A stretch of 11,216 nt of DNA from a virus (UHGV-0117334); one strand, 5' to 3'; counted from the stretch's first letter, positions 2,202 to 11,020 are shown. Program-made: numbers and translations. The notes: generated by a model from the sequence alone, not told the origin.

Positions 2202-2219
2202 TGCGACCGTGGTCGCACA
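2202..2219. repeat. 18-bp palindrome TGCGACCGTGGTCGCACA, copy 1 of 3; SopB/ParB-type centromere-like site candidate
   Basis: Exact 18-mer shared with 6403-6420 (reverse orientation) and 8848-8865. Arms TGCGACC/GGTCGCA around a GT centre. Differs from the recalled F sopC SopB site TGGGACCACGGTCCCA by one base per arm. Intergenic, followed by TTTTT on the + strand. Confidence 0.6.
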
Positions 2220-2850: not shown

Positions 2851-3174
2851 ATGTTTAACGTGATAACCCACCCTGCAGCACTGGATGAACTGCTTGAACT
2901 ACCAGATGATTTGCGAGGTCGCATGACCAGATTAATTGAGCGACTGGAGAAGGAAGGCAACAAACTGAAGATGCCCCATAGCCGTGTAATAGGTGGAGGG
3001 CTTTTTGAACTACGAGTAGGGGATAAAAACATCGCAAGAACGCTGTACGCCTACGCGACTGGTAACGAAATTTATCTATTGCATGCTTTTGTCGAAACAA
3101 CGAAATATAACAAACAGAAAACACCGGTGAAGGCTATCGAAATCGCCAGAACTCGCCTGAAGGAGATGAACTGA
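2851..3174 (+). CDS. type II toxin, Gp49-like / HigB-like (RelE/ParE superfamily)
   Basis: 107-aa ORF with the family hallmark pattern ...RTLYAYATGNEIYLLHAFVETTKYNKQKTPVKAIEIARTRL. GGAGG SD 7 nt upstream of the ATG. Stop overlaps the start of the downstream HTH gene (TGATG). Confidence 0.8.
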   Translation: MFNVITHPAALDELLELPDDLRGRMTRLIERLEKEGNKLKMPHSRVIGGGLFELRVGDKNIARTLYAYATGNEIYLLHAFVETTKYNKQKTPVKAIEIARTRLKEMN

Positions 3175-3461
3175 TGAAAGCGAAAGGCATCCCGTTTAAC
3201 GAAGTAAAAGAAAAACTTCTCAACACTCCAGAAGCCATCAAAGGATATGAAGAGGCCGATAAAGAGCTGGAGATGGTCGAAATGTTATACGAAATGAGGG
3301 AAAGAGCAGGTTTAACGAAGTCAGCTCTGGCTGAACGAATGGGATTGCGCCCGTCAGCTATCAGCCGCCTGGAAAGCAATCCTTTAGGGGCAAGCATGAA
3401 AACTTTATCAAAATATGCCCAAGCATGCGGTGCAACGATTAATATTAATGCCGTCTATTGA
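3174..3461 (+). CDS. XRE-family HTH antitoxin (HigA-like) partner of the upstream toxin
   Basis: 95-aa ORF translationally coupled to the toxin. Helix-turn-helix segment LTKSALAERMGLRPSAISRLE. Toxin-first gene order is typical of HigBA-type modules. Confidence 0.8.
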   Translation: MKAKGIPFNEVKEKLLNTPEAIKGYEEADKELEMVEMLYEMRERAGLTKSALAERMGLRPSAISRLESNPLGASMKTLSKYAQACGATININAVY

Positions 3462-3478
3462 TTAGACCCTTTTCGCTA

Positions 3479-3498
3479 CCCCGTCCAGAAGGGCGGGG
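3479..3498. terminator. hairpin between convergent genes (possible bidirectional terminator)
   Basis: CCCCGTCC-AGAA-GGGCGGGG stem-loop (8 bp with one G-U pair) between the end of the antitoxin (+) and the end of the 72-aa ORF (-). Flanking U-tracts are weak. Confidence 0.35.
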
Positions 3499-3504
3499 TG
3501 TGTA

Positions 3505-3723
3505 TCAATGATGCAAACACTCAACAGCAATAACTTGTTGGCAATTCTGAGCAATCTCCCGCGACATACTAACAAGTCGTGAAATCTCGCCAAGATGCAA
3601 GCTGGCTTCTGGAGAAGCCAGAGCAACGCTAACCAGATCCAAAACGGCGTCGATGTCTTTTAGGTTTGATCCGAGTTCTTCAAGAGTTGATACAGGTGCT
3701 TCAGTCATTGAATCTAATACCAT
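3505..3723 (-). CDS. hypothetical small acidic protein (72 aa); candidate SOS-controlled antirepressor
   Basis: ORF lies immediately downstream (minus strand) of a near-consensus LexA box and an operator-like sequence. No clear SD before the ATG, so the translation start is uncertain. Function inferred from context only. Confidence 0.4.
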   Translation of the reverse strand: MVLDSMTEAPVSTLEELGSNLKDIDAVLDLVSVALASPEASLHLGEISRLVSMSREIAQNCQQVIAVECLHH

Positions 3724-3747
3724 TTAATTAAAAAAGGTTATTTGATA

Positions 3748-3763
3748 CTGTATAAAATTACAG
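3748..3763. promoter_or_regulatory. LexA (SOS) box CTGT-N8-ACAG
   Basis: tACTGTATAAAATTACAGgg matches the E. coli LexA consensus TACTGTATATATATACAGTA at 16 of 20 positions, with an AT-rich 8-bp spacer. Sits 25-40 bp upstream of the minus-strand 72-aa ORF. Confidence 0.6.
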
Positions 3764-3773
3764 GGTAAAACTC

Positions 3774-3791
3774 AAATTTTATAGCCAACTT
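3774..3791. promoter_or_regulatory. operator-like sequence related to the repressor/cro operators
   Basis: AAATTTTATAGCCA is identical over 14 nt (16 of 18 over the extended site) to 7601-7618 in the repressor/cro intergenic operator region. Confidence 0.4.
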
Positions 3792-3964
3792 TCAATGGAT
3801 TAACTGGTTAAATATCTTTGTAGTCCGATACTTATGTTCCCTTCCTACGCCTCGCCCAACCACTTTCAAAAGCCCATCACCACCATCAGAAAAGCTCTTT
3901 TCGCTTCGTTTTCTCATCATTTCAAAAACTATGCCTTTTTGTTTATTTATCATTCCGTGACCAG

Positions 3965-4291
3965 TCACACTTTGAGCACAAGTTTCAGCCTCGTAGTTGT
4001 AAGGTGACATGAGCCTTCACCATCAAAAATACATTCTGAAACAGGCATTTTCTGACCACATCGCGGGCAAGTAGTAGATAGCTGCTTCTGCAGCTCCTTA
4101 TAGTTTTTCCTGATCAGCAGACCGATGACTTCATTCTCTGAATATGGAACTCGTCCCGGTCTACGCAATACACAAATTTCCCCCAACATACGTAGCTCGT
4201 CAGGTTCCAGAATCCAGTCCCGTCTTGATGTGCCTTCCTTCTTCAACCGTTCCCTGCGTCTCCTTTGCCGTTCTGCAGCTGTCAGCGCCAT
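3965..4291 (-). CDS. hypothetical protein with C-terminal Zn-ribbon (CPRC...C..C) and Arg/Lys-rich N-terminus
   Basis: 108-aa ORF with strong GGAGG SD 4 nt upstream of the ATG. Motif CPRCGQKMPVSECIFDGEGSCH. Last gene of the leftward early operon. Confidence 0.6.
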   Translation of the reverse strand: MALTAAERQRRRRERLKKEGTSRRDWILEPDELRMLGEICVLRRPGRVPYSENEVIGLLIRKNYKELQKQLSTTCPRCGQKMPVSECIFDGEGSCHLTTTRLKLVLKV

Positions 4292-6397: not shown

Positions 6398-6698
6398 TTT
6401 CTTGTGCGACCACGGTCGCACCCTCTCTGATTTCCAAGTAACGCTTAATCCAAAGATTTTCTATATGCTTATTACCTGGCTGATTTGATAAATACCAATC
6501 GGCAATTACAGACTGCTTATTACTATCTGGTCGTGTCCTGTAACCACAAGTTGGACACCAGATAACATATTCATTTCTTACCCCCGAATACCTTAATTCT
6601 GGCTTCGACGGTTTCCTGAACATAACTTGTTTACAAAGGCAGAATGGCACTTCCTGCCCGATGGCGTTTGATGATTTCACTGCGCTTCTCCGCCGCAT
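6378..6698 (-). CDS. hypothetical Zn-ribbon protein (CPTCGYR motif); start uncertain
   Basis: 106-aa ORF from the track. Its 5' 68 nt overlap the upstream 236-aa gene, and an internal ATG at 6623 would give 81 aa. The C-terminal residues ATVVAQ are encoded by the palindrome. Confidence 0.5.
   Translation of the reverse strand: MRRRSAVKSSNAIGQEVPFCLCKQVMFRKPSKPELRYSGVRNEYVIWCPTCGYRTRPDSNKQSVIADWYLSNQPGNKHIENLWIKRYLEIREGATVVAQENENNAI
6403..6420. repeat. 18-bp palindrome, copy 2 of 3 (reverse orientation); centromere-like site candidate
   Basis: TGTGCGACCACGGTCGCA on the + strand is the exact reverse complement of the 18-mer at 2202-2219 and 8848-8865. Overlaps the 3' end of the 106-aa ORF and the translation initiation region of the next gene. 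Confidence 0.6.
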
Positions 6699-7341
6699 TT
6701 AATAATGCAGTTCGATTTAAGCTCAGACATCGCGACTTAATTAAAAGCCAGCGTTCTTTATAATCTTGTCTCCAGCTATCAATAGATATATTCAGTAGAA
6801 AACTCAGATGCCTGTCCTGTTCTCTCTCATCAACTGCCTCAGCACACGTAAGTTCTGATTTAACCTGCTGTGCCGCGTAATAAATCAATTTCCGCATGGC
6901 TTTTTTCGTGGAGGCCTTCATTTTTTTAAAGCCGCCCCCCGAATGAGCAACCAGAAAATCAAGCCATAACCACTGACAAACAATCACATCATTGTTGTAA
7001 TCAGGCTTGCATCCGTAGCAATAATAAAGCCAGGCTGATTCCTCGTTATTCAACTGACCAATAGCCCTGCGCCAGCTGGCGCTCTGAAAATCAATATCAG
7101 TGAGCAACATTGATGATTGTTTAAATGTTTTCCCCTGGTGGAATCTAACCGGCTCAGCAGGAACGGACACTTCGTATGAGTTATCATCACCTACACTGAT
7201 TGACCGGACTGGTTTATTGTTAAAGCGTCCTGATCTGCCTAGACGCATCTGCTCAAGCTGGACCTCTAGGATGCCACGCTGGCGATAATGAATATCAGCC
7301 AATGCCGTGGATACGCAGCTGCGTATATACTCAAGCTCCAC
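6631..7341 (-). CDS. hypothetical protein (236 aa); Q-like late antiterminator candidate by position
   Basis: GTG start with AAGGAG SD about 10 nt upstream, immediately after cro. Several Cys residues (CYGC...C). Antiterminator role is inferred only from the cB-cro-Q gene order recalled for N15-like phages, not from a recognised motif. Confidence 0.6.
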   Translation of the reverse strand: MELEYIRSCVSTALADIHYRQRGILEVQLEQMRLGRSGRFNNKPVRSISVGDDNSYEVSVPAEPVRFHQGKTFKQSSMLLTDIDFQSASWRRAIGQLNNEESAWLYYCYGCKPDYNNDVIVCQWLWLDFLVAHSGGGFKKMKASTKKAMRKLIYYAAQQVKSELTCAEAVDEREQDRHLSFLLNISIDSWRQDYKERWLLIKSRCLSLNRTALLNAAEKRSEIIKRHRAGSAILPL

Positions 7342-7579
7342 GCTTACGGCTCTCCTTAATCGACTGCTTTACCCGCCGAGTTGTAAAGTCACTCTTCAGC
7401 TTGTAAGCAGTACGAACTTCAATATCACTTTGCCGCAATGAAGGAATCTCTCCAGCGGTTAACCATTGGTAAACAGCACCGGGTGTTACACCTACCCCAG
7501 CCGCTGCTTTTTCTACACTGCCAAAGTGGCGAATAAGTTCTTCTGGTTTCATGCGGTTATTATAAGCAATAAATCGCAT
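7331..7579 (-). CDS. cro: Cro-like HTH regulator
   Basis: 82-aa ORF divergent from the repressor. HTH segment FGSVEKAAAGVGVTPGAVYQWL is typical of Cro/YdaS-type proteins. An alternative start at ATG 7552 (MKPEEL...) lies just downstream of a TATAAT-like hexamer. Confidence 0.75.
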   Translation of the reverse strand: MRFIAYNNRMKPEELIRHFGSVEKAAAGVGVTPGAVYQWLTAGEIPSLRQSDIEVRTAYKLKSDFTTRRVKQSIKESRKRGA

Positions 7580-7580
7580 T

Positions 7581-7620
7581 TAAAGCCAGCTATAATAAAT
7601 AAATTTTATAGCCAGCTATA
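7581..7620. promoter_or_regulatory. operator region: two 14-bp palindromes TA(A/T)AGC-CA-GCTATA between divergent repressor and cro genes
   Basis: TAAAGCCAGCTATA (7581-7594) and TATAGCCAGCTATA (7607-7620) are spaced 26 bp centre to centre in the 64-bp intergenic region; the second ends 23 bp before the repressor ATG. Confidence 0.6.
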
Positions 7621-7643
7621 AGAAGATCATTTATGATTAAGCT

Positions 7644-8240
7644 ATGAAAACACGAGGCGAACGACTGAAAGCACGCCGTTTAGAGATGAAGCTGACGTTG
7701 CGAGAAGTTGCTGAGGCTGTCGATATCTCTATTGCAGGCGTCCAAAACTTAGAACGTGGCGACGTAATGCCGTCACTGGAGATAGGTATTGCCCTGGCTA
7801 AGTGCTTACGCAAGCCAGTGCATTGGGTGCTATATGGGACAGAATATGACCCTGATCGCATTCCTGTTATTGGCACAACTGAAAGTGGGCCGGATGAAGA
7901 GTGGAAGCCGGGACAGGTTCCAAATACTGAGCGATTCCTGCCATTCATCAGCCAGCGCAATACTGTGTATGCGTTAACTATCAGCAATCTTACGCAGGGA
8001 AACTATCAGCCAGGCGATTTTCTCCTGGTCGATTCTGCGCTGGAACTGGTCCCCGGCGAGGATGTTCTGGTTCGTGATACTGCAGGAAATATCACTATCC
8101 AGCGCCTGGCCCGTTTTGATGATGAAAATTACTATCTGGATGGAACAAACTCACAACGCGCCATCTTCAGGAAAAGCGATCTTGAATTTGTTCACCAAAT
8201 AGTCGGAACGATCAAATCATTCATGGTTGAGGGTAGATGA
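7644..8240 (+). CDS. phage repressor, CI/CB-type (N-terminal XRE HTH, C-terminal beta-rich domain)
   Basis: 198-aa ORF. HTH segment LTLREVAEAVDISIAGVQNLERG. The C-terminal domain resembles the oligomerisation / peptidase-like domain of CI/LexA-type repressors, but I could not pick out a clear Ser-Lys catalytic dyad by eye. No SD before the ATG, so it may be translated from a leaderless or short-leader mRNA. Confidence 0.85.
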   Translation: MKTRGERLKARRLEMKLTLREVAEAVDISIAGVQNLERGDVMPSLEIGIALAKCLRKPVHWVLYGTEYDPDRIPVIGTTESGPDEEWKPGQVPNTERFLPFISQRNTVYALTISNLTQGNYQPGDFLLVDSALELVPGEDVLVRDTAGNITIQRLARFDDENYYLDGTNSQRAIFRKSDLEFVHQIVGTIKSFMVEGR

Positions 8241-8341
8241 CTTAATACGGGGTTTATTGTTTGCTGTAAATCTGGTTTAATGCAGGGCATATGTTCTGTG
8301 GGTTGACTCAGGTTACAGCAGCAGAAAAAAGACGAAAAAAA

Positions 8342-8485: not shown

Positions 8486-11020
8486 ATGACATTAAACGAT
8501 TTCTATGCGGATCGCTTTGGCAGCGATCCGTTCTCGCTAATTGAAGCAGCACGGGATGAAATAACCGAGCTGGCACAGATGGCTGGTATCAACTGGCCTG
8601 CCTGTTCCGACAACATCCAACTCAACCCTCGCGGGGGGGGTGAGCGTTACTCTTCATACAATAAAACATCTCCAGAAGCTCTCGAAAAGAGCCTGAAAGG
8701 ACGCGTAGAAATTTACTCCAGGCTGGAACACAGCAAAGGGATTGATTACCCGTTCATTAACTTCGTCCATAAAGGCAGCGATGCTGGCTCATGGAGCGGT
8801 TTCTCCTTCCTGTTTTCTGAATATCGCCGTGAGCAACAACGGAATAATGCGACCGTGGTCGCACAACCGGAAGAAGAACGGGCAAGAATAGAACGTCAGG
8901 CCGAAGCACGTCGTCGCCGTGAAGAACAAAAACGAATTAATGACCTGAAAAACAACCAAATGGACCATGAACGTTTGCTGGGATGGCTGGCATTCCACAG
9001 TGCTTGGGAACATGCTCCTGCAGAAGACGGCTCATGGCCATATGCGATTAAAAAAGGTATTCGTGACGTTTTTAATTCGTGTGATGTGCGTCGCGTGACC
9101 AGTCACGACAGCGCAAAATGGAGCAGGGGGCCAACCACGTATATGGCTATCCCTCTGGCTCACCTGGACGGTCGTTACGATGGTCGTATTGTTGGTTGGC
9201 AGAGAATCGACAAACAAGGTGGAAAATACCAGACCAGCGCCGTAACCAGCGGCGATTTCGTCGGTGCCTGCTTTGTTATCGGTGAGCTGAAAGGGGCGCA
9301 AAACATCGCTGTTACAGAAGGTTTTGCTACTGGTGCATCCATCTGGCTTGCCACGAAAAAAGATAAACGCTTTGACGCTGTGGTTGTCGCTGTATCCGCT
9401 AACAACATGGTTCATGTTGTGGAACAACTGGTAAACATGTACCCGGCGGCAAAAATCACCTGCGCACTGGATAATGACCGGAAATCAGCTACAGAAGGAA
9501 AAGGGAATACCGGCCTGCGGACTGGCTATGAAATCTTATCGAAATTCAACGATGTCCGCTGCGTCTATCCAACTTTTGAAGACGATCCGCAAATGGAGTG
9601 CAGTGACTTCAACGACCTGCACAAACTACGTGGACTTCGTGAAACAGCACGTCAACTGTTTGCAACTGCAAACCGCCTGAAAACTGGCACTGATTTGCTA
9701 TCTCTGACGCTCAACCGCCTGAAGACAATTAAGCGGGATAACCGTCGTACTTTTGCCAAAGAGCTGCTGAGAGCGGTGGATATTGGCATGCTAACCTGTC
9801 CGGTTCCTAACAGTCCGTCAGACTTATTTAACATGTTCTGCATCGTTCTGCGTGAAATGGGGCTGGAAAATATCTATCGCGCTACGGTAAAAGACCACAT
9901 TGCCCGTCGCCTGAATAAAAAGTGCCGTATTGCCCAGGCTCCGCGCTCATTCAGCGAACGCATAACTGATCCCAATAAACGTCCTCAACATATCACCTAT
10001 AAGCGTTTTGAAACTTCGGTAATGACCGATGACGTCCTGAAGTACGTGCAATCACTACAGGGGATAGTCATCGTCCGTGCTGGTATGGGTTCCGGCAAAT
10101 CTACTGGATTGTTACGACCGTTAATGCATAGCTCAGAACGTGGTATCTCTGTTGCTCACCGTGTCTCCCTTATTGGTGGCCTGTGGGAAATGATGACAGA
10201 AGGAAAAGGTGTAAAAGCCGATATCCTGCACTATCAGGACCCTGGCTATCAGGAAATGGCTCCATACGCCAGTAAACTGACCATCTGCATAAACTCGATT
10301 GTTAAAAACTGCTGGCAACCGTTGATGCGCCAGCACGACTATTTTGGCTTTGACGAGGCCACACAAGGGCTACGTGCCGTTCTTTCCGGTCGGGCTATGG
10401 AAAACCCGGTGGCTGTATTCCATACGCTAATTGACGCGCTGGCCAGAACGGAACAACACCCAATCATGGTGGATGCTGATGCGAACGATCTGCTGGTTGA
10501 CCTGGCTGAACTGGCTATGAAACGCCGTGAAGAACTAGGTTTACCGGCATGGCTGCAGATCCACGTAATTGAATTACCTGTTGATGTTCGCAACCGCGAA
10601 ACAGGTGAGCCAATCCGGGTTTTTTATACAGAAAAAGATCGCATTATGACCGAGGTGGTGAAAGCTGTATCGGATGGCGAAAAAATCATGTTGGCCACCG
10701 ACAGCTCCACCTTTGCAGAAGATGTGACAGCCACCCTGAGAATGCATTTTCCTGGTAAGAAATTTCTGTGTGTAAACCAGAAAAGTAAACAGGATGAAGA
10801 AGTCGATGCCTTTACCAACCAGCCAAAAGTAATGGTGATGAAATACGATGGACTGATCTACAGTCCGTCAATTTCCTCCGGGGTGTCATTTGAGAAAAAA
10901 CATTTTGACCGTCATTTCGGCATGTTCTGCGGTGAAGTTGTGCCCAGCGACGCAGTGCAAATGCTACGCCGCGACCGTACAGCAAAAGAATTTATTATCG
11001 GCTTTGAAAGATACGGATAA
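8486..11020 (+). CDS. repA: replication protein: Toprim-type primase fused to a P-loop helicase (RepA-like primase-helicase)
   Basis: 844-aa ORF. Toprim motifs (IAVTEGFATGASI with catalytic Glu; CALDNDRK DxD motif). Walker A (GMGSGKST) and Walker B-like (YFGFDEATQG) in the C-terminal half. Same strand as and downstream of the repressor, as recalled for repA in N15-like phage-plasmids. Gene symbol is by architecture only. Confidence 0.85.
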   Translation: MTLNDFYADRFGSDPFSLIEAARDEITELAQMAGINWPACSDNIQLNPRGGGERYSSYNKTSPEALEKSLKGRVEIYSRLEHSKGIDYPFINFVHKGSDAGSWSGFSFLFSEYRREQQRNNATVVAQPEEERARIERQAEARRRREEQKRINDLKNNQMDHERLLGWLAFHSAWEHAPAEDGSWPYAIKKGIRDVFNSCDVRRVTSHDSAKWSRGPTTYMAIPLAHLDGRYDGRIVGWQRIDKQGGKYQTSAVTSGDFVGACFVIGELKGAQNIAVTEGFATGASIWLATKKDKRFDAVVVAVSANNMVHVVEQLVNMYPAAKITCALDNDRKSATEGKGNTGLRTGYEILSKFNDVRCVYPTFEDDPQMECSDFNDLHKLRGLRETARQLFATANRLKTGTDLLSLTLNRLKTIKRDNRRTFAKELLRAVDIGMLTCPVPNSPSDLFNMFCIVLREMGLENIYRATVKDHIARRLNKKCRIAQAPRSFSERITDPNKRPQHITYKRFETSVMTDDVLKYVQSLQGIVIVRAGMGSGKSTGLLRPLMHSSERGISVAHRVSLIGGLWEMMTEGKGVKADILHYQDPGYQEMAPYASKLTICINSIVKNCWQPLMRQHDYFGFDEATQGLRAVLSGRAMENPVAVFHTLIDALARTEQHPIMVDADANDLLVDLAELAMKRREELGLPAWLQIHVIELPVDVRNRETGEPIRVFYTEKDRIMTEVVKAVSDGEKIMLATDSSTFAEDVTATLRMHFPGKKFLCVNQKSKQDEEVDAFTNQPKVMVMKYDGLIYSPSISSGVSFEKKHFDRHFGMFCGEVVPSDAVQMLRRDRTAKEFIIGFERYG
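8848..8865. repeat. 18-bp palindrome, copy 3 of 3, inside the primase-helicase coding sequence
   Basis: TGCGACCGTGGTCGCACA identical to 2202-2219. Encodes the residues ATVVAQ of the replication protein. Confidence 0.6.

What the first reader, a model, noticed from the sequence alone, without database searches (positions are those of the whole stretch)
3505..3791. Near-consensus LexA box plus operator-like site upstream of a small ORF: candidate SOS-triggered antirepressor switch
tACTGTATAAAATTACAGgg (CTGT-N8-ACAG at 3748-3763) is a strong LexA box, and 11 bp further upstream is a 14-nt exact copy of part of the repressor/cro operator region. Both precede the minus-strand 72-aa ORF. The repressor shows no obvious autocleavage dyad, so induction through a LexA-controlled antirepressor (as reported for N15 AntC, coliphage 186 Tum and Gifsy phages) is plausible, with possible dual LexA plus phage-repressor control.
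Basis: partly seen in the sequence, partly recalled or inferred. Interest (0 to 1): 0.6.

Follow-up and report, generated by a model that had tools for sequence, protein, structure and literature searches.

The report
SOS-controlled antirepressor of N15-like phage
This is the counterpart, in an N15-like linear-plasmid phage of E. coli, of the known antC switch: a small antirepressor gene kept silent by the host LexA protein until DNA damage, so it is real but ordinary; only a possible extra phage-repressor site next to it is new.

Summary
CTGTATAAAATTACAG (3748-3763) is the only CTGT-N8-ACAG in the window. It scores like working E. coli LexA boxes, and no shuffled window matched it. It lies 37 nt upstream of a small minus-strand ORF.

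The window is the right arm of an N15-like telomere phage, about 98% identical to Escherichia phages YDC107_1 and PhiR46_1. The ORF is the positional and sequence counterpart of an unannotated N15 ORF between genes 47 and 48. That ORF carries one of only two strong LexA boxes in N15, so I take it to be antC (Mardanov & Ravin 2007).

The box sits at a fixed distance from the start codon in all 34 distinct upstream variants found, and in a 43%-identical relative. The conserved start is the second ATG (3708), giving 67 aa rather than 72.

The repressor is 78% identical to N15 CB. It has Gln in place of the catalytic Lys and no Ala-Gly cleavage site.

The operator-like site (3779-3794) matches the main operator at 13 of 16 positions and ranks fifth with an operator matrix. 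It occurs only in this sub-lineage, has a poor right half and lies upstream of the -35. Dual control is therefore unproven.

Verdict: correct reading, new member of a known kind, low interest.

The parts
3505..3708 (-). antC orthologue: a 67-aa small antirepressor candidate (stop codon 3505-3507). An optional in-frame 5-codon extension reaches the non-conserved ATG at 3723.
   Evidence: tblastn gives 57% identity to the unannotated N15 ORF at 39604-39807, E 2e-17, and hits only telomere phages. The ATG at 3708 is invariant in 7 phages, while the 3723 ATG is lost or closed by a stop in others. It matches PHROG 6301 over its full length and PHROG 10889 'anti-repressor' at E 1.4e-6. AlphaFold2 predicts a helical hairpin, H9-30 and H39-66, pLDDT 88.
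3746..3765 (.). LexA (SOS) box TACTGTATAAAATTACAGGG, core CTGT-N8-ACAG at 3748-3763.
   Evidence: It is the only such site in the window. Its heterology index is 5.89, within the range of known boxes, and 0 of 200 shuffles reach it. It is present at 54-58 nt from the start codon in all 34 distinct upstream variants and in the distant homologue L071. It is the most conserved block of the upstream region, with a mean majority fraction of 0.92.
3747..3752 (-). Inferred -10 hexamer TACAGT, inside the promoter-proximal half of the LexA box.
   Evidence: This is an inference from the sequence. The hexamer is invariant in all lineages and lies 17 nt downstream of the TTG of the inferred -35. It was not called by the consensus scan, because only 8 of 12 positions match.
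3770..3775 (-). Inferred -35 hexamer TTGAGT (TTGCGG in N15).
   Evidence: The TTTG is invariant across 33 distinct sequences. The assignment as a -35 is an inference.
3779..3794 (.). Operator-like site TTATAGCCAACTTTCA, resembling operator OR3. It spans about -39 to -54 from the inferred transcription start and overlaps the stop codon of the upstream gp47-like ORF.
   Evidence: It matches OR3 at 13 of 16 positions and is the only site with 3 or fewer mismatches outside OR, with 0.05 expected. It ranks 5th in the window with a matrix built from the five N15 CB operators, 13.3 bits against 12.9-22.1 for true sites and 9.3 for the next hit. It is identical in 6 window-clade variants and absent from the YDC107_1, N15 and phiKO2 clades.
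3774..3790 (.). 17-nt stretch repeated at 7601-7617 (16 of 17 identical, 14 of them contiguous).
   Evidence: family D9.
3478..3499 (.). G+C-rich hairpin between the converging antC and higA-like genes. It is a likely bidirectional transcription stop but has no clear U-tract.
   Evidence: the hairpin CCCCGCCC-UUCU-GGACGGGG is part of a -17.1 kcal/mol fold (z = -1.1, not exceptional). The terminator scan did not call it.
7557..7621 (.). OR operator region between cro and cB: OR1-like at 7557-7572, OR2-like at 7580-7595, and OR3 TTATAGCCAGCTATAA at 7606-7621.
   Evidence: The operators are identical or near-identical in the window, YDC107_1, PhiR46_1, N15 and phiKO2. N15 annotates this region as a CB binding region. 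The 16-bp OR3 is reported as the CB target (PMC4488713). These are the top three matrix hits.
7644..8240 (+). CB prophage repressor (198 aa), an HTH plus a degenerate S24-like domain; the presumed target of AntC.
   Evidence: It is 78% identical to N15 CB. LexA Lys156 aligns with Gln, Ser119 with Thr, and there is no Ala-Gly. Pfam finds HTH_3, and Peptidase_S24 scores below its cut-off.
7331..7579 (-). cro (lytic repressor). It heads the early leftward gene run that ends just upstream of antC.
   Evidence: Pfam P22_Cro, E 2.4e-22.
8254..8269 (.). OL-type CB operator upstream of repA.
   Evidence: It is the 4th-ranked matrix hit, 13.9 bits, and is homologous to the annotated N15 OL region.

Best explanation
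The region is the induction trigger of an N15-like linear plasmid-prophage (genus Ravinvirus). It is the orthologue of the N15 antC module.

Proposed mechanism:
1. In a lysogen, host LexA binds the SOS box at 3746-3765. The box covers the -10 hexamer and the spacer of a weak sigma-70 promoter (-35 at 3775-3770, -10 at 3752-3747, transcription start near 3740). This keeps the single-gene transcription unit silent.
2. DNA damage activates RecA, LexA cleaves itself, and the promoter opens.
3. A 67-aa helical-hairpin protein (3708-3505) is made.
4. It binds the CB repressor (7644-8240), which cannot cleave itself, and removes it from the OR and OL operators. That releases cro, Q, the lytic genes and repA.

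Shown here: the box, its strength, its family-wide conservation at a fixed distance from the start codon, the homology and shared gene position with N15, the conserved start codon, and the loss of catalytic residues in CB.

Inferred: the promoter hexamers and the transcription start. Also inferred, from the published N15 work: LexA binding, SOS induction and the AntC-CB contact.
For: The window is 98% covered at 97.9% identity by Escherichia phage YDC107_1 (Ravinvirus), and is related to N15 and phiKO2.

The gene order matches N15 genes 46 to 49, with the ORF in the unannotated gap between genes 47 and 48: gp46-like, gp47-like, small ORF, then the converging gp48/gp49 toxin-antitoxin pair. The protein is 57% identical to the N15 ORF (E 2e-17), and hits occur only in telomere phages.

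N15 carries CTGTGTTTATATACAG at the same position upstream. The N15 genome has only two strong LexA boxes: this one, and one in front of the umuD-like gene 26. Published sources state that AntC is a LexA-controlled antirepressor of N15 (PMC3121763). They also state that antC is a separate gene outside immA and immB whose product acts against the prophage repressor (PMC4488713).

Box strength and uniqueness. The box is present in 34 of 34 distinct upstream variants from 67 loci, 33 of them with an exact CTGT-N8-ACAG. It is also present in a 43%-identical homologue from a metagenome. The box is the most conserved upstream block, while the 4 nt between it and the -35 vary freely.

PHROG 10889 'anti-repressor' matches at E 1.4e-6. 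CB is 78% identical to N15 CB and has Gln at the catalytic Lys position. The N15 repressor was shown to be non-proteolytic under SOS induction (PMC10432266).

All 11 matches in complete E. coli genomes are on 36-68 kb plasmids, as expected for linear plasmid prophages.
Against: Nothing was measured for this phage: no LexA binding, no induction, no AntC-CB contact.

The primary paper (Mardanov & Ravin 2007) is not in the held library. The equation 'N15 ORF 39619-39831 = antC' therefore rests on elimination, on my recollection of that paper, and on secondary citations. No database names any family member AntC; all are 'hypothetical protein'.

The promoter hexamers are weak (8 of 12 positions) and the consensus scan did not call them. 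The Shine-Dalgarno sequence before the 3708 ATG is poor: only a conserved GGTA at -13 to -10.

AntC here is only 52-57% identical to N15 AntC, so its specificity for this CB is assumed.
Confidence: 0.88

Rival explanations
1. Dual control. In this sub-lineage the antC promoter is governed by LexA and also by the phage's own CB repressor, or by Cro, through the OR3-like site at 3779-3794. The antirepressor would then be held off twice in the lysogen, or tuned or shut off by Cro after induction. This adds to the main explanation rather than replacing it.
For: The site matches OR3 at 13 of 16 positions, or 16 of 17 when the flank is included. It is the only match with 3 or fewer mismatches outside OR, with 0.05 expected. 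With a matrix built only from the five N15 CB operators it ranks 5th in the window, directly after OR3, OR2, OR1 and OL. It scores 13.3 bits, equal to the weakest true operators (12.9-13.9) and well above the next hit at 9.3. Only 12% of shuffled windows contain any site that good, and this one lies in a promoter region that is about 1% of the window. True N15 operators carry 0-3 mismatches to the same consensus. Compared with the sequence common to the other clades, all five differences in this lineage move towards the OR3 sequence (read).
Against: YDC107_1, PhiR46_1, N15 and phiKO2 use the identical OR3 operator. Yet they have 5-7 mismatches at the homologous place, so the site is not a conserved feature of the module.

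Within the window clade everything from 3810 to the start codon is nearly invariant, so identity there does not show selection.

The right half-site TGAAAG breaks the T at position 2, which is invariant in every recognised half-site. The related PY54 Cro did not bind OR3 half-sites (PMC4488713).

The site is solitary, with no partner 24-26 bp away for cooperative binding.

It lies at about -39 to -54, upstream of the -35, where a bound repressor need not block RNA polymerase.

If only the 12 half-site positions are counted, 0.78 such sites are expected per window.

Only OR and OL sites are reported for N15 CB (PMC4488713).
Confidence: 0.2
2. The operator-like site is a by-product without function. 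It would be a chance convergence in A+T-rich intergenic DNA, or a short recombination patch copied from OR3. antC would then be controlled by LexA alone, as in N15.
For: The site is absent from sister clades that have the same operator. The right half is poor, the position is unfavourable, and significance is weak on a half-site-only count. Several unrelated exact 13-14-nt repeats occur in the same window (D14, D18, D19, D20).
Against: The full-length match is rare by chance, and it falls precisely in the promoter region of the gene that counteracts the protein binding that operator.
Confidence: 0.7
3. The LexA box is real, but the small protein is not an antirepressor. It could be another SOS-induced accessory protein, with the true inducer of this phage encoded elsewhere.
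For: No experiment exists for this protein. It has no Pfam or NCBIfam family. The fold search gave nothing significant. All database names are 'hypothetical protein'.
Against: It is homologous to, and in the same position as, the only N15 ORF that fits the published description of antC. It matches the PHROG 'anti-repressor' family. The repressor cannot cleave itself, so some SOS-linked inactivator is needed (PMC10432266).
Confidence: 0.06
4. The palindrome is a chance match to the LexA consensus and has no regulatory role.
For: The bare pattern CTGT-N8-ACAG appears at least once in 13% of shuffled windows.
Against: The full 20-mer score is never reached in 200 shuffles. The box is kept at a fixed distance in 34 of 34 variants and in a 43%-identical relative, while neighbouring bases vary.
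Confidence: 0.02

Closest known systems
AntC of coliphage N15 (Mardanov & Ravin 2007, J Bacteriol 189:6333; cited in PMC3121763, PMC4488713, PMC10432266)
   Same: Same phage group. Same place in the genome, between gp47 and the gp48/gp49 toxin-antitoxin pair. Homologous small protein: 57% identity in the tblastn match, 52% over the 67-aa alignment, with an invariant SPEASLH loop. LexA box at the same distance from the start codon. Same TTTG -35 and TACAGT -10. The partner repressor is 78% identical and likewise lacks the catalytic Lys. Same OR3 operator.
   Different: The protein sequence has diverged by about half, including the whole C-terminal tail. The neighbouring gp47-like gene carries a 29-aa internal deletion. 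An OR3-like site sits just upstream of the -35, which N15 lacks. Nothing has been tested experimentally for this phage.
Tum of coliphage 186
   Same: Works the same way: a LexA-repressed promoter drives an antirepressor that binds a non-cleavable repressor (PMC3121763).
   Different: Tum is 146 aa and its second half resembles DinI (PMC3121763). The protein here is 67 aa with no Pfam family at all. It sits in a different phage type (P2-like). No sequence relationship was found.
GfoA / GftA antirepressors of the Salmonella Gifsy prophages
   Same: Small LexA-controlled antirepressors encoded outside the immunity region, acting by binding a non-cleavable repressor (PMC3121763).
   Different: They are found in lambdoid integrated prophages. 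No similarity was detected: tblastn hits of the window protein in the phage collection are confined to telomere phages. Cross-talk between prophages is known for Gifsy but unknown here.
N15 AntA (gp30) of the immA anti-immunity operon; P22 Ant-type antirepressors
   Same: They also counteract the prophage repressor of the same phage group.
   Different: They are large proteins, controlled by a small processed RNA and transcription termination rather than by LexA (title of Ravin et al. 1999, as cited in PMC4488713). They are unrelated in sequence and lie on a different part of the genome, outside the window.
CTXphi PrstA, controlled jointly by LexA and the phage repressor RstR
   Same: It is a precedent for a phage promoter governed by both LexA and the phage's own repressor (cited in PMC8044961). 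This is what the dual-control reading would resemble.
   Different: In CTXphi the doubly controlled promoter drives the phage's own replication and early genes, not an antirepressor. No binding data exist for the site found here.

Membership tests
N15 AntC-type LexA-controlled antirepressor module | Small protein homologous to N15 AntC | tested here: met
   57% identity, E 2e-17, to the N15 ORF at 39604-39807. 26 invariant columns, including SPEASLH, across 6 lineages. Caveat: identifying that N15 ORF as antC rests on elimination, on recollection of the paper, and on secondary citations.
N15 AntC-type LexA-controlled antirepressor module | Separate locus outside immA and immB, at the end of the early leftward gene run | tested here: met
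   The order gp46-like, gp47-like, ORF, then converging gp48/gp49 homologues is the same in the window, YDC107_1, phiKO2, KpLi5 and N15. PMC4488713 describes antC as a separate gene.
N15 AntC-type LexA-controlled antirepressor module | LexA box overlapping the promoter of the gene | tested here: met
   Box at 3746-3765 with heterology index 5.89, reached by 0 of 200 shuffles. Conserved in 34 of 34 variants and in L071. It overlaps the inferred -10; the promoter itself is inferred.
N15 AntC-type LexA-controlled antirepressor module | Partner prophage repressor that cannot cleave itself | tested here: met
   CB is 78% identical to N15 CB. It has Gln at LexA Lys156, Thr at Ser119 and no Ala-Gly. 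S24 scores below the Pfam cut-off. N15 cI was shown to be non-proteolytic (PMC10432266).
N15 AntC-type LexA-controlled antirepressor module | LexA binds the promoter and the gene is induced by DNA damage | not testable with these tools
   This needs a gel shift and a reporter assay. It is reported for N15 only.
N15 AntC-type LexA-controlled antirepressor module | The protein binds and inactivates CB | not testable with these tools
   This needs a pull-down or a derepression assay. No complex prediction was available.
186 Tum family | Protein of about 146 aa with a DinI-like C-terminal half | tested here: not met
   The protein is 67 aa and matches no Pfam family at E <= 0.01. The description of Tum is from PMC3121763.
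P22 Ant / N15 AntA-type antirepressors | Large protein with recognised antirepressor domains | tested here: not met
   The protein is 67 aa with no Pfam or NCBIfam hit.
CB/Cro operator of N15-type phages (for the site at 3779-3794) | 16-bp site with two-fold symmetry and TTA at the start of both half-sites | tested here: inconclusive
   The left half TTATAG is perfect. The right half TGAAAG matches at 4 of 6 and breaks the invariant T2. The site matches at 13 of 16 overall and scores 13.3 bits, equal to the weakest true operators.
CB/Cro operator of N15-type phages (for the site at 3779-3794) | Conserved in relatives that use the same operator | tested here: not met
   There are 5-7 mismatches at the homologous place in the YDC107_1, N15 and phiKO2 clades, although OR3 is identical in all of them.
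CB/Cro operator of N15-type phages (for the site at 3779-3794) | Bound by CB or Cro | not testable with these tools
   This needs a gel shift or a footprint.

The most novel reading that the evidence does not exclude
In this widespread E. coli/Shigella sub-lineage of N15-like phages, the antirepressor promoter has acquired a working copy of the OR3 operator. CB, or Cro, and LexA would then jointly control antC. A repressor directly holding down the gene for its own antagonist would sharpen the induction threshold, or let Cro switch antC off after commitment. That wiring has not been described for LexA-controlled antirepressors.
Probability: 0.18. Interest if true: 0.45.

Novelty: new member of a known kind. 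Interest (0 to 1): 0.2.

Why it matters
The result gives a function to a gene that every database copy calls 'hypothetical protein'. These contigs come from E. coli, Shigella and other enterobacteria. The N15 reference record does not annotate the gene at all.

It also corrects the start codon.

It predicts that these linear plasmid prophages are induced by DNA-damaging agents through LexA rather than by repressor cleavage. That bears on whether SOS-inducing antibiotics mobilise them.

The mechanism itself has been known since 2007, so the conceptual gain is small. The only open point is whether the extra operator-like site adds repressor feedback onto the antirepressor promoter.

Tried and rejected
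1. The primary N15 antC paper could not be read, by DOI or by PMC id. Full-text searches for antC found only two secondary sources.

2. Database names gave no function. Exact-sequence cluster look-ups for the N15, phiKO2 and window proteins return only 'hypothetical protein' or 'Gp47'. Pfam and NCBIfam return nothing.

3. The word-indexed homologue search found only close relatives. The exhaustive HMMER search found just 4 cluster representatives among 1.84 billion proteins, so the family is narrow and no link to Tum or the Gifsy antirepressors appeared.

4. A Foldseek search of the hairpin model against viral structures gave no hit at E <= 0.001. A two-helix hairpin is too simple to be informative.

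5. The consensus promoter and terminator scan called nothing in 3400-4100. The promoter is therefore assigned from conservation only.

6. Rfam found nothing in the window.

7. The 20-mer perfect LexA palindrome with up to 3 mismatches finds nothing, because the site has 5 mismatches, all in the weakly conserved centre and the last two bases. A matrix score was used instead.

8. I planned a covariation test: do lineages with different operators carry their own operator upstream of antC? It failed because N15, phiKO2 and the E. coli clades all share the same OR3.

9. I looked for a second, cooperative operator 24-26 bp on either side of 3779-3794 by reading the sequence. There is none.

10. The 72-aa reading of the ORF was rejected in favour of 67 aa.

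11. The locus of the distant homologue P0050 was not found in viral contigs. It was recovered from metagenome contigs.

Full report
**What the window is**

A megablast of the whole window against phage genomes gives 98% coverage at 97.9% and 97.7% identity to Escherichia phages YDC107_1 (genus Ravinvirus) and PhiR46_1. It gives weaker, partial matches to phiKO2, several Klebsiella telomere phages and N15.

The ORF map and the annotation of those records show the right arm of an N15-like linear plasmid-prophage:
- lysozyme, holin and DNA methylase at the left end
- gp51- and gp50-like genes
- a HigB/HigA-type toxin-antitoxin pair (2851-3461, + strand)
- a long minus-strand early gene run from cro (7331-7579) through Q, an exonuclease and gp46/gp47 homologues, down to the small ORF of the finding
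- to the right of the divergent operator region, the CB repressor (7644-8240) and the primase-helicase repA (8486 onward)

In complete E. coli genomes the 3462-3830 segment occurs in 11 of 5426 genomes. All copies are on plasmids of 36-68 kb, as expected for this lifestyle.

**Checking the observation**

The sequence at 3746-3765 reads TACTGTATAAAATTACAGGG. CTGT-N8-ACAG occurs once in the window. The bare pattern is not very rare: 0.14 are expected and 13% of shuffles have one.

The site scores 5.89, and the training sites range from 1.0 to 9.9 with a median of 5.7. It is the best site in the window. The next independent site scores 10.2 and lies inside repA. None of 200 shuffled windows reaches 5.89.

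The '14-nt copy' is also real. 3774-3787 equals 7601-7614, and the match extends to 16 of 17 positions (D9).

**What the small ORF is**

A tblastn of the 72-aa translation against 50,697 phage records hits only 13 records, all telomere phages. The closest relatives annotate it 'putative gp47', 'Gp47' or 'hypothetical protein'.

In N15 the match is 57% identical (E 2e-17). It falls at 39604-39807, in an unannotated gap between gene 47 and the converging gene 48/49 toxin-antitoxin pair. That is exactly the arrangement in the window.

The N15 sequence upstream reads CCCTGTGTTTATATACAGTATTAAATAACC. The window's minus strand reads CCCTGTAATTTTATACAGTATCAAATAACC.

A scan of the whole N15 genome finds only two strong LexA boxes. 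One lies just before the umuD-like gene 26. The other lies before this ORF.

The primary paper on N15 antC (Mardanov & Ravin 2007) is not in the held library. Three open papers give the relevant facts:
- AntC of N15 is a LexA-controlled antirepressor (PMC3121763).
- antC is a separate gene outside immA and immB, and its product acts against the prophage repressor (PMC4488713).
- The N15 repressor is not cleaved on SOS induction (PMC10432266).

By elimination, and in line with my recollection of the paper, the N15 ORF is antC and the window ORF is its orthologue. A match to PHROG 10889, annotated 'anti-repressor' (E 1.4e-6), agrees with this.

**Start codon**

I aligned the upstream regions of seven telomere phages. 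The ATG at 3723 is CTG in phiKO2 and CGG in NAR688 and KpLi5. In YDC107_1 it is followed by a stop at codon 3. The ATG at 3708 is invariant.

The conserved product is therefore 67 aa (3505-3708). The five extra codons may or may not be used in this phage.

AlphaFold2 on the single sequence predicts two helices, residues 9-30 and 39-66, joined by the invariant SPEASLH loop, with mean pLDDT 88. Fold comparison was uninformative.

The family is narrow. An exhaustive HMMER search of 1.84 billion cluster representatives returns four.

**Conservation of the box**

I collected 67 loci from phage records, assemblies, IMG/VR and two bacterial genomes. They give 34 distinct 140-nt upstream sequences.

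Every one has a LexA box 54-58 nt upstream of the conserved ATG, measured from the promoter-distal end of the core. 33 of them have an exact CTGT-N8-ACAG, and phiKO2 has CATGT. Their heterology indices run from 1.8 to 7.0.

A homologue only 43% identical, recovered from a metagenome contig, carries CACTGTAATTATATACAGTG at the same place, with the same TTTGCG upstream.

In an alignment of 33 distinct sequences the box is the most conserved block, with a mean majority fraction of 0.92. The 4 nt between it and the upstream TTTG score 0.52.

This is a phylogenetic footprint, not merely low divergence.

**Promoter (inferred)**

The invariant TTTG and the invariant TACAGT give TTGAGT-17 nt-TACAGT. 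The -35 is at 3775-3770 and the -10 at 3752-3747. This puts the -10 and the spacer inside the LexA box and the transcription start near 3740.

The match to consensus is weak (8 of 12 positions), and the consensus scan did not call it.

A G+C-rich hairpin (3478-3499) separates antC from the converging higA-like gene, but it has no clear U-tract.

**The repressor**

The 198-aa CB is 78% identical to N15 CB. The catalytic Ser aligns with Thr. There is no Ala-Gly cleavage site.

Pfam detects the HTH, and finds an S24-like domain only below its cut-off.

**The operator-like site**

The cB-cro intergenic region contains TTATAGCCAGCTATAA (7606-7621), TTAAAGCCAGCTATAA (7580-7595) and TTATTATAAGCAATAA (7557-7572). 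The first is identical in YDC107_1, PhiR46_1, N15 and phiKO2. It corresponds to the 16-bp palindromic OR3 reported as the CB target (PMC4488713).

The site upstream of antC, TTATAGCCAACTTTCA (3779-3794), matches it at 13 of 16 positions. It is the only match with 3 or fewer mismatches outside OR, with 0.05 expected.

With a matrix built only from the five operators I parsed from the N15 CB-binding annotations, the window's top hits are OR3, OR2, OR1, OL and then this site. It scores 13.3 bits. The true sites score 12.9-22.1, the next hit scores 9.3, and 12% of shuffled windows have any site that good.

Several points count against function:
- The homologous place in the YDC107_1, N15 and phiKO2 clades has 5-7 mismatches, although these phages use the same operator.
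- The right half TGAAAG breaks a T that is invariant in all recognised half-sites.
- The related PY54 Cro did not bind OR3 half-sites.
- The site has no neighbour for cooperative binding.
- It lies at about -39 to -54, upstream of the -35.
- If only half-site positions are counted, 0.78 such sites are expected per window.

I rate real CB or Cro control of antC at about 0.2.

**Comparison with what is known**

In mechanism this is the LexA-controlled antirepressor design described for 186 Tum, N15 AntC and the Gifsy GfoA/GftA proteins (PMC3121763).

By membership it belongs with N15 AntC. Homology, gene position, the LexA box and a non-cleavable partner repressor were all tested here and met. 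LexA binding and the AntC-CB contact cannot be tested with these tools.

It is not a Tum-type protein: it is 67 aa, not 146 aa, and has no DinI-like half. It is not a P22 Ant or N15 AntA-type protein either.

**Verdict**

What was found is the orthologue of a module published in 2007, sitting in a phage whose databases leave the gene unnamed.

Novelty: new member of a known kind. Interest is low (0.2). The only loose end with some novelty is the lineage-specific OR3-like site beside the promoter.

Noticed in passing
window 2202-2219, 6405-6422, 8848-8865: There are three dispersed copies of an 18-19-nt palindrome, TGCGACC(G/A)(T/C)GGTCGCA (D1, I1, I2). The same sequence is annotated 'putative plasmid partitioning site' twice in phiKO2. 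These are most likely the scattered centromere sites of the Sop-type partition system of N15-like linear plasmids. One lies inside repA and one at the start of a small early ORF.
   Followed up: partly
window 3792-4010 (-): The gp47-like ORF just upstream of antC has an in-frame internal deletion of 29 residues relative to gp47 of N15, phiKO2 and YDC107_1. Its listed start lies inside the gp46-like gene; the homologous start is the Met at residue 20 (PHROG 13995 matches in two pieces). The gene may be decaying in this lineage. Assembly L010 of the same clade has no gene called there.
   Followed up: partly
window 2851-3461 (+): A Gp49/HigB-like toxin (107 aa) and an HTH antitoxin (95 aa) converge on antC. 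The same pair (N15 genes 49 and 48) flanks antC in every relative examined. The antirepressor and the addiction module are therefore a conserved neighbourhood sharing one hairpin, 3478-3499.
   Followed up: no
window 10614-10633 (-): A second, weaker LexA-like 20-mer, TTCTGTATAAAAAACCCGGA (heterology index 10.2), lies inside the repA coding sequence. It lacks the second CAG arm and is probably chance.
   Followed up: no
N15 genome (NC_001901) 21658-21677: The strongest LexA box in N15, TACTGTATAAAAAAACAGTT, lies just upstream of the umuD-like gene 26. N15 therefore carries two SOS-controlled units. The corresponding region is outside this window.
   Followed up: no
window 7568-7619: The OR2 and OR3 operators sit within two tandem 26-nt units, AATAAAT..TTTA.AGCCAGCTAT, that are 81% identical (D4). 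This gives the 26-bp operator spacing. OR1 lies 23 bp further on.
   Followed up: no
window 3709-3723 and homologous loci: The motif (A/C)(T/G)GGTA, 12-15 nt before the conserved ATG, has an invariant GGTA in all lineages, including the 43%-identical relative. It may be the weak ribosome-binding site. In phages where it forms an ATG it may be an alternative start.
   Followed up: partly
N15 genome 28576-28591: An operator-like 16-mer, TTATAGTTTGCTTTAC (2 half-site mismatches), lies between genes 32 and 33 in the immA anti-immunity region of N15. It may be a CB site controlling that operon. It was not examined further.
   Followed up: no
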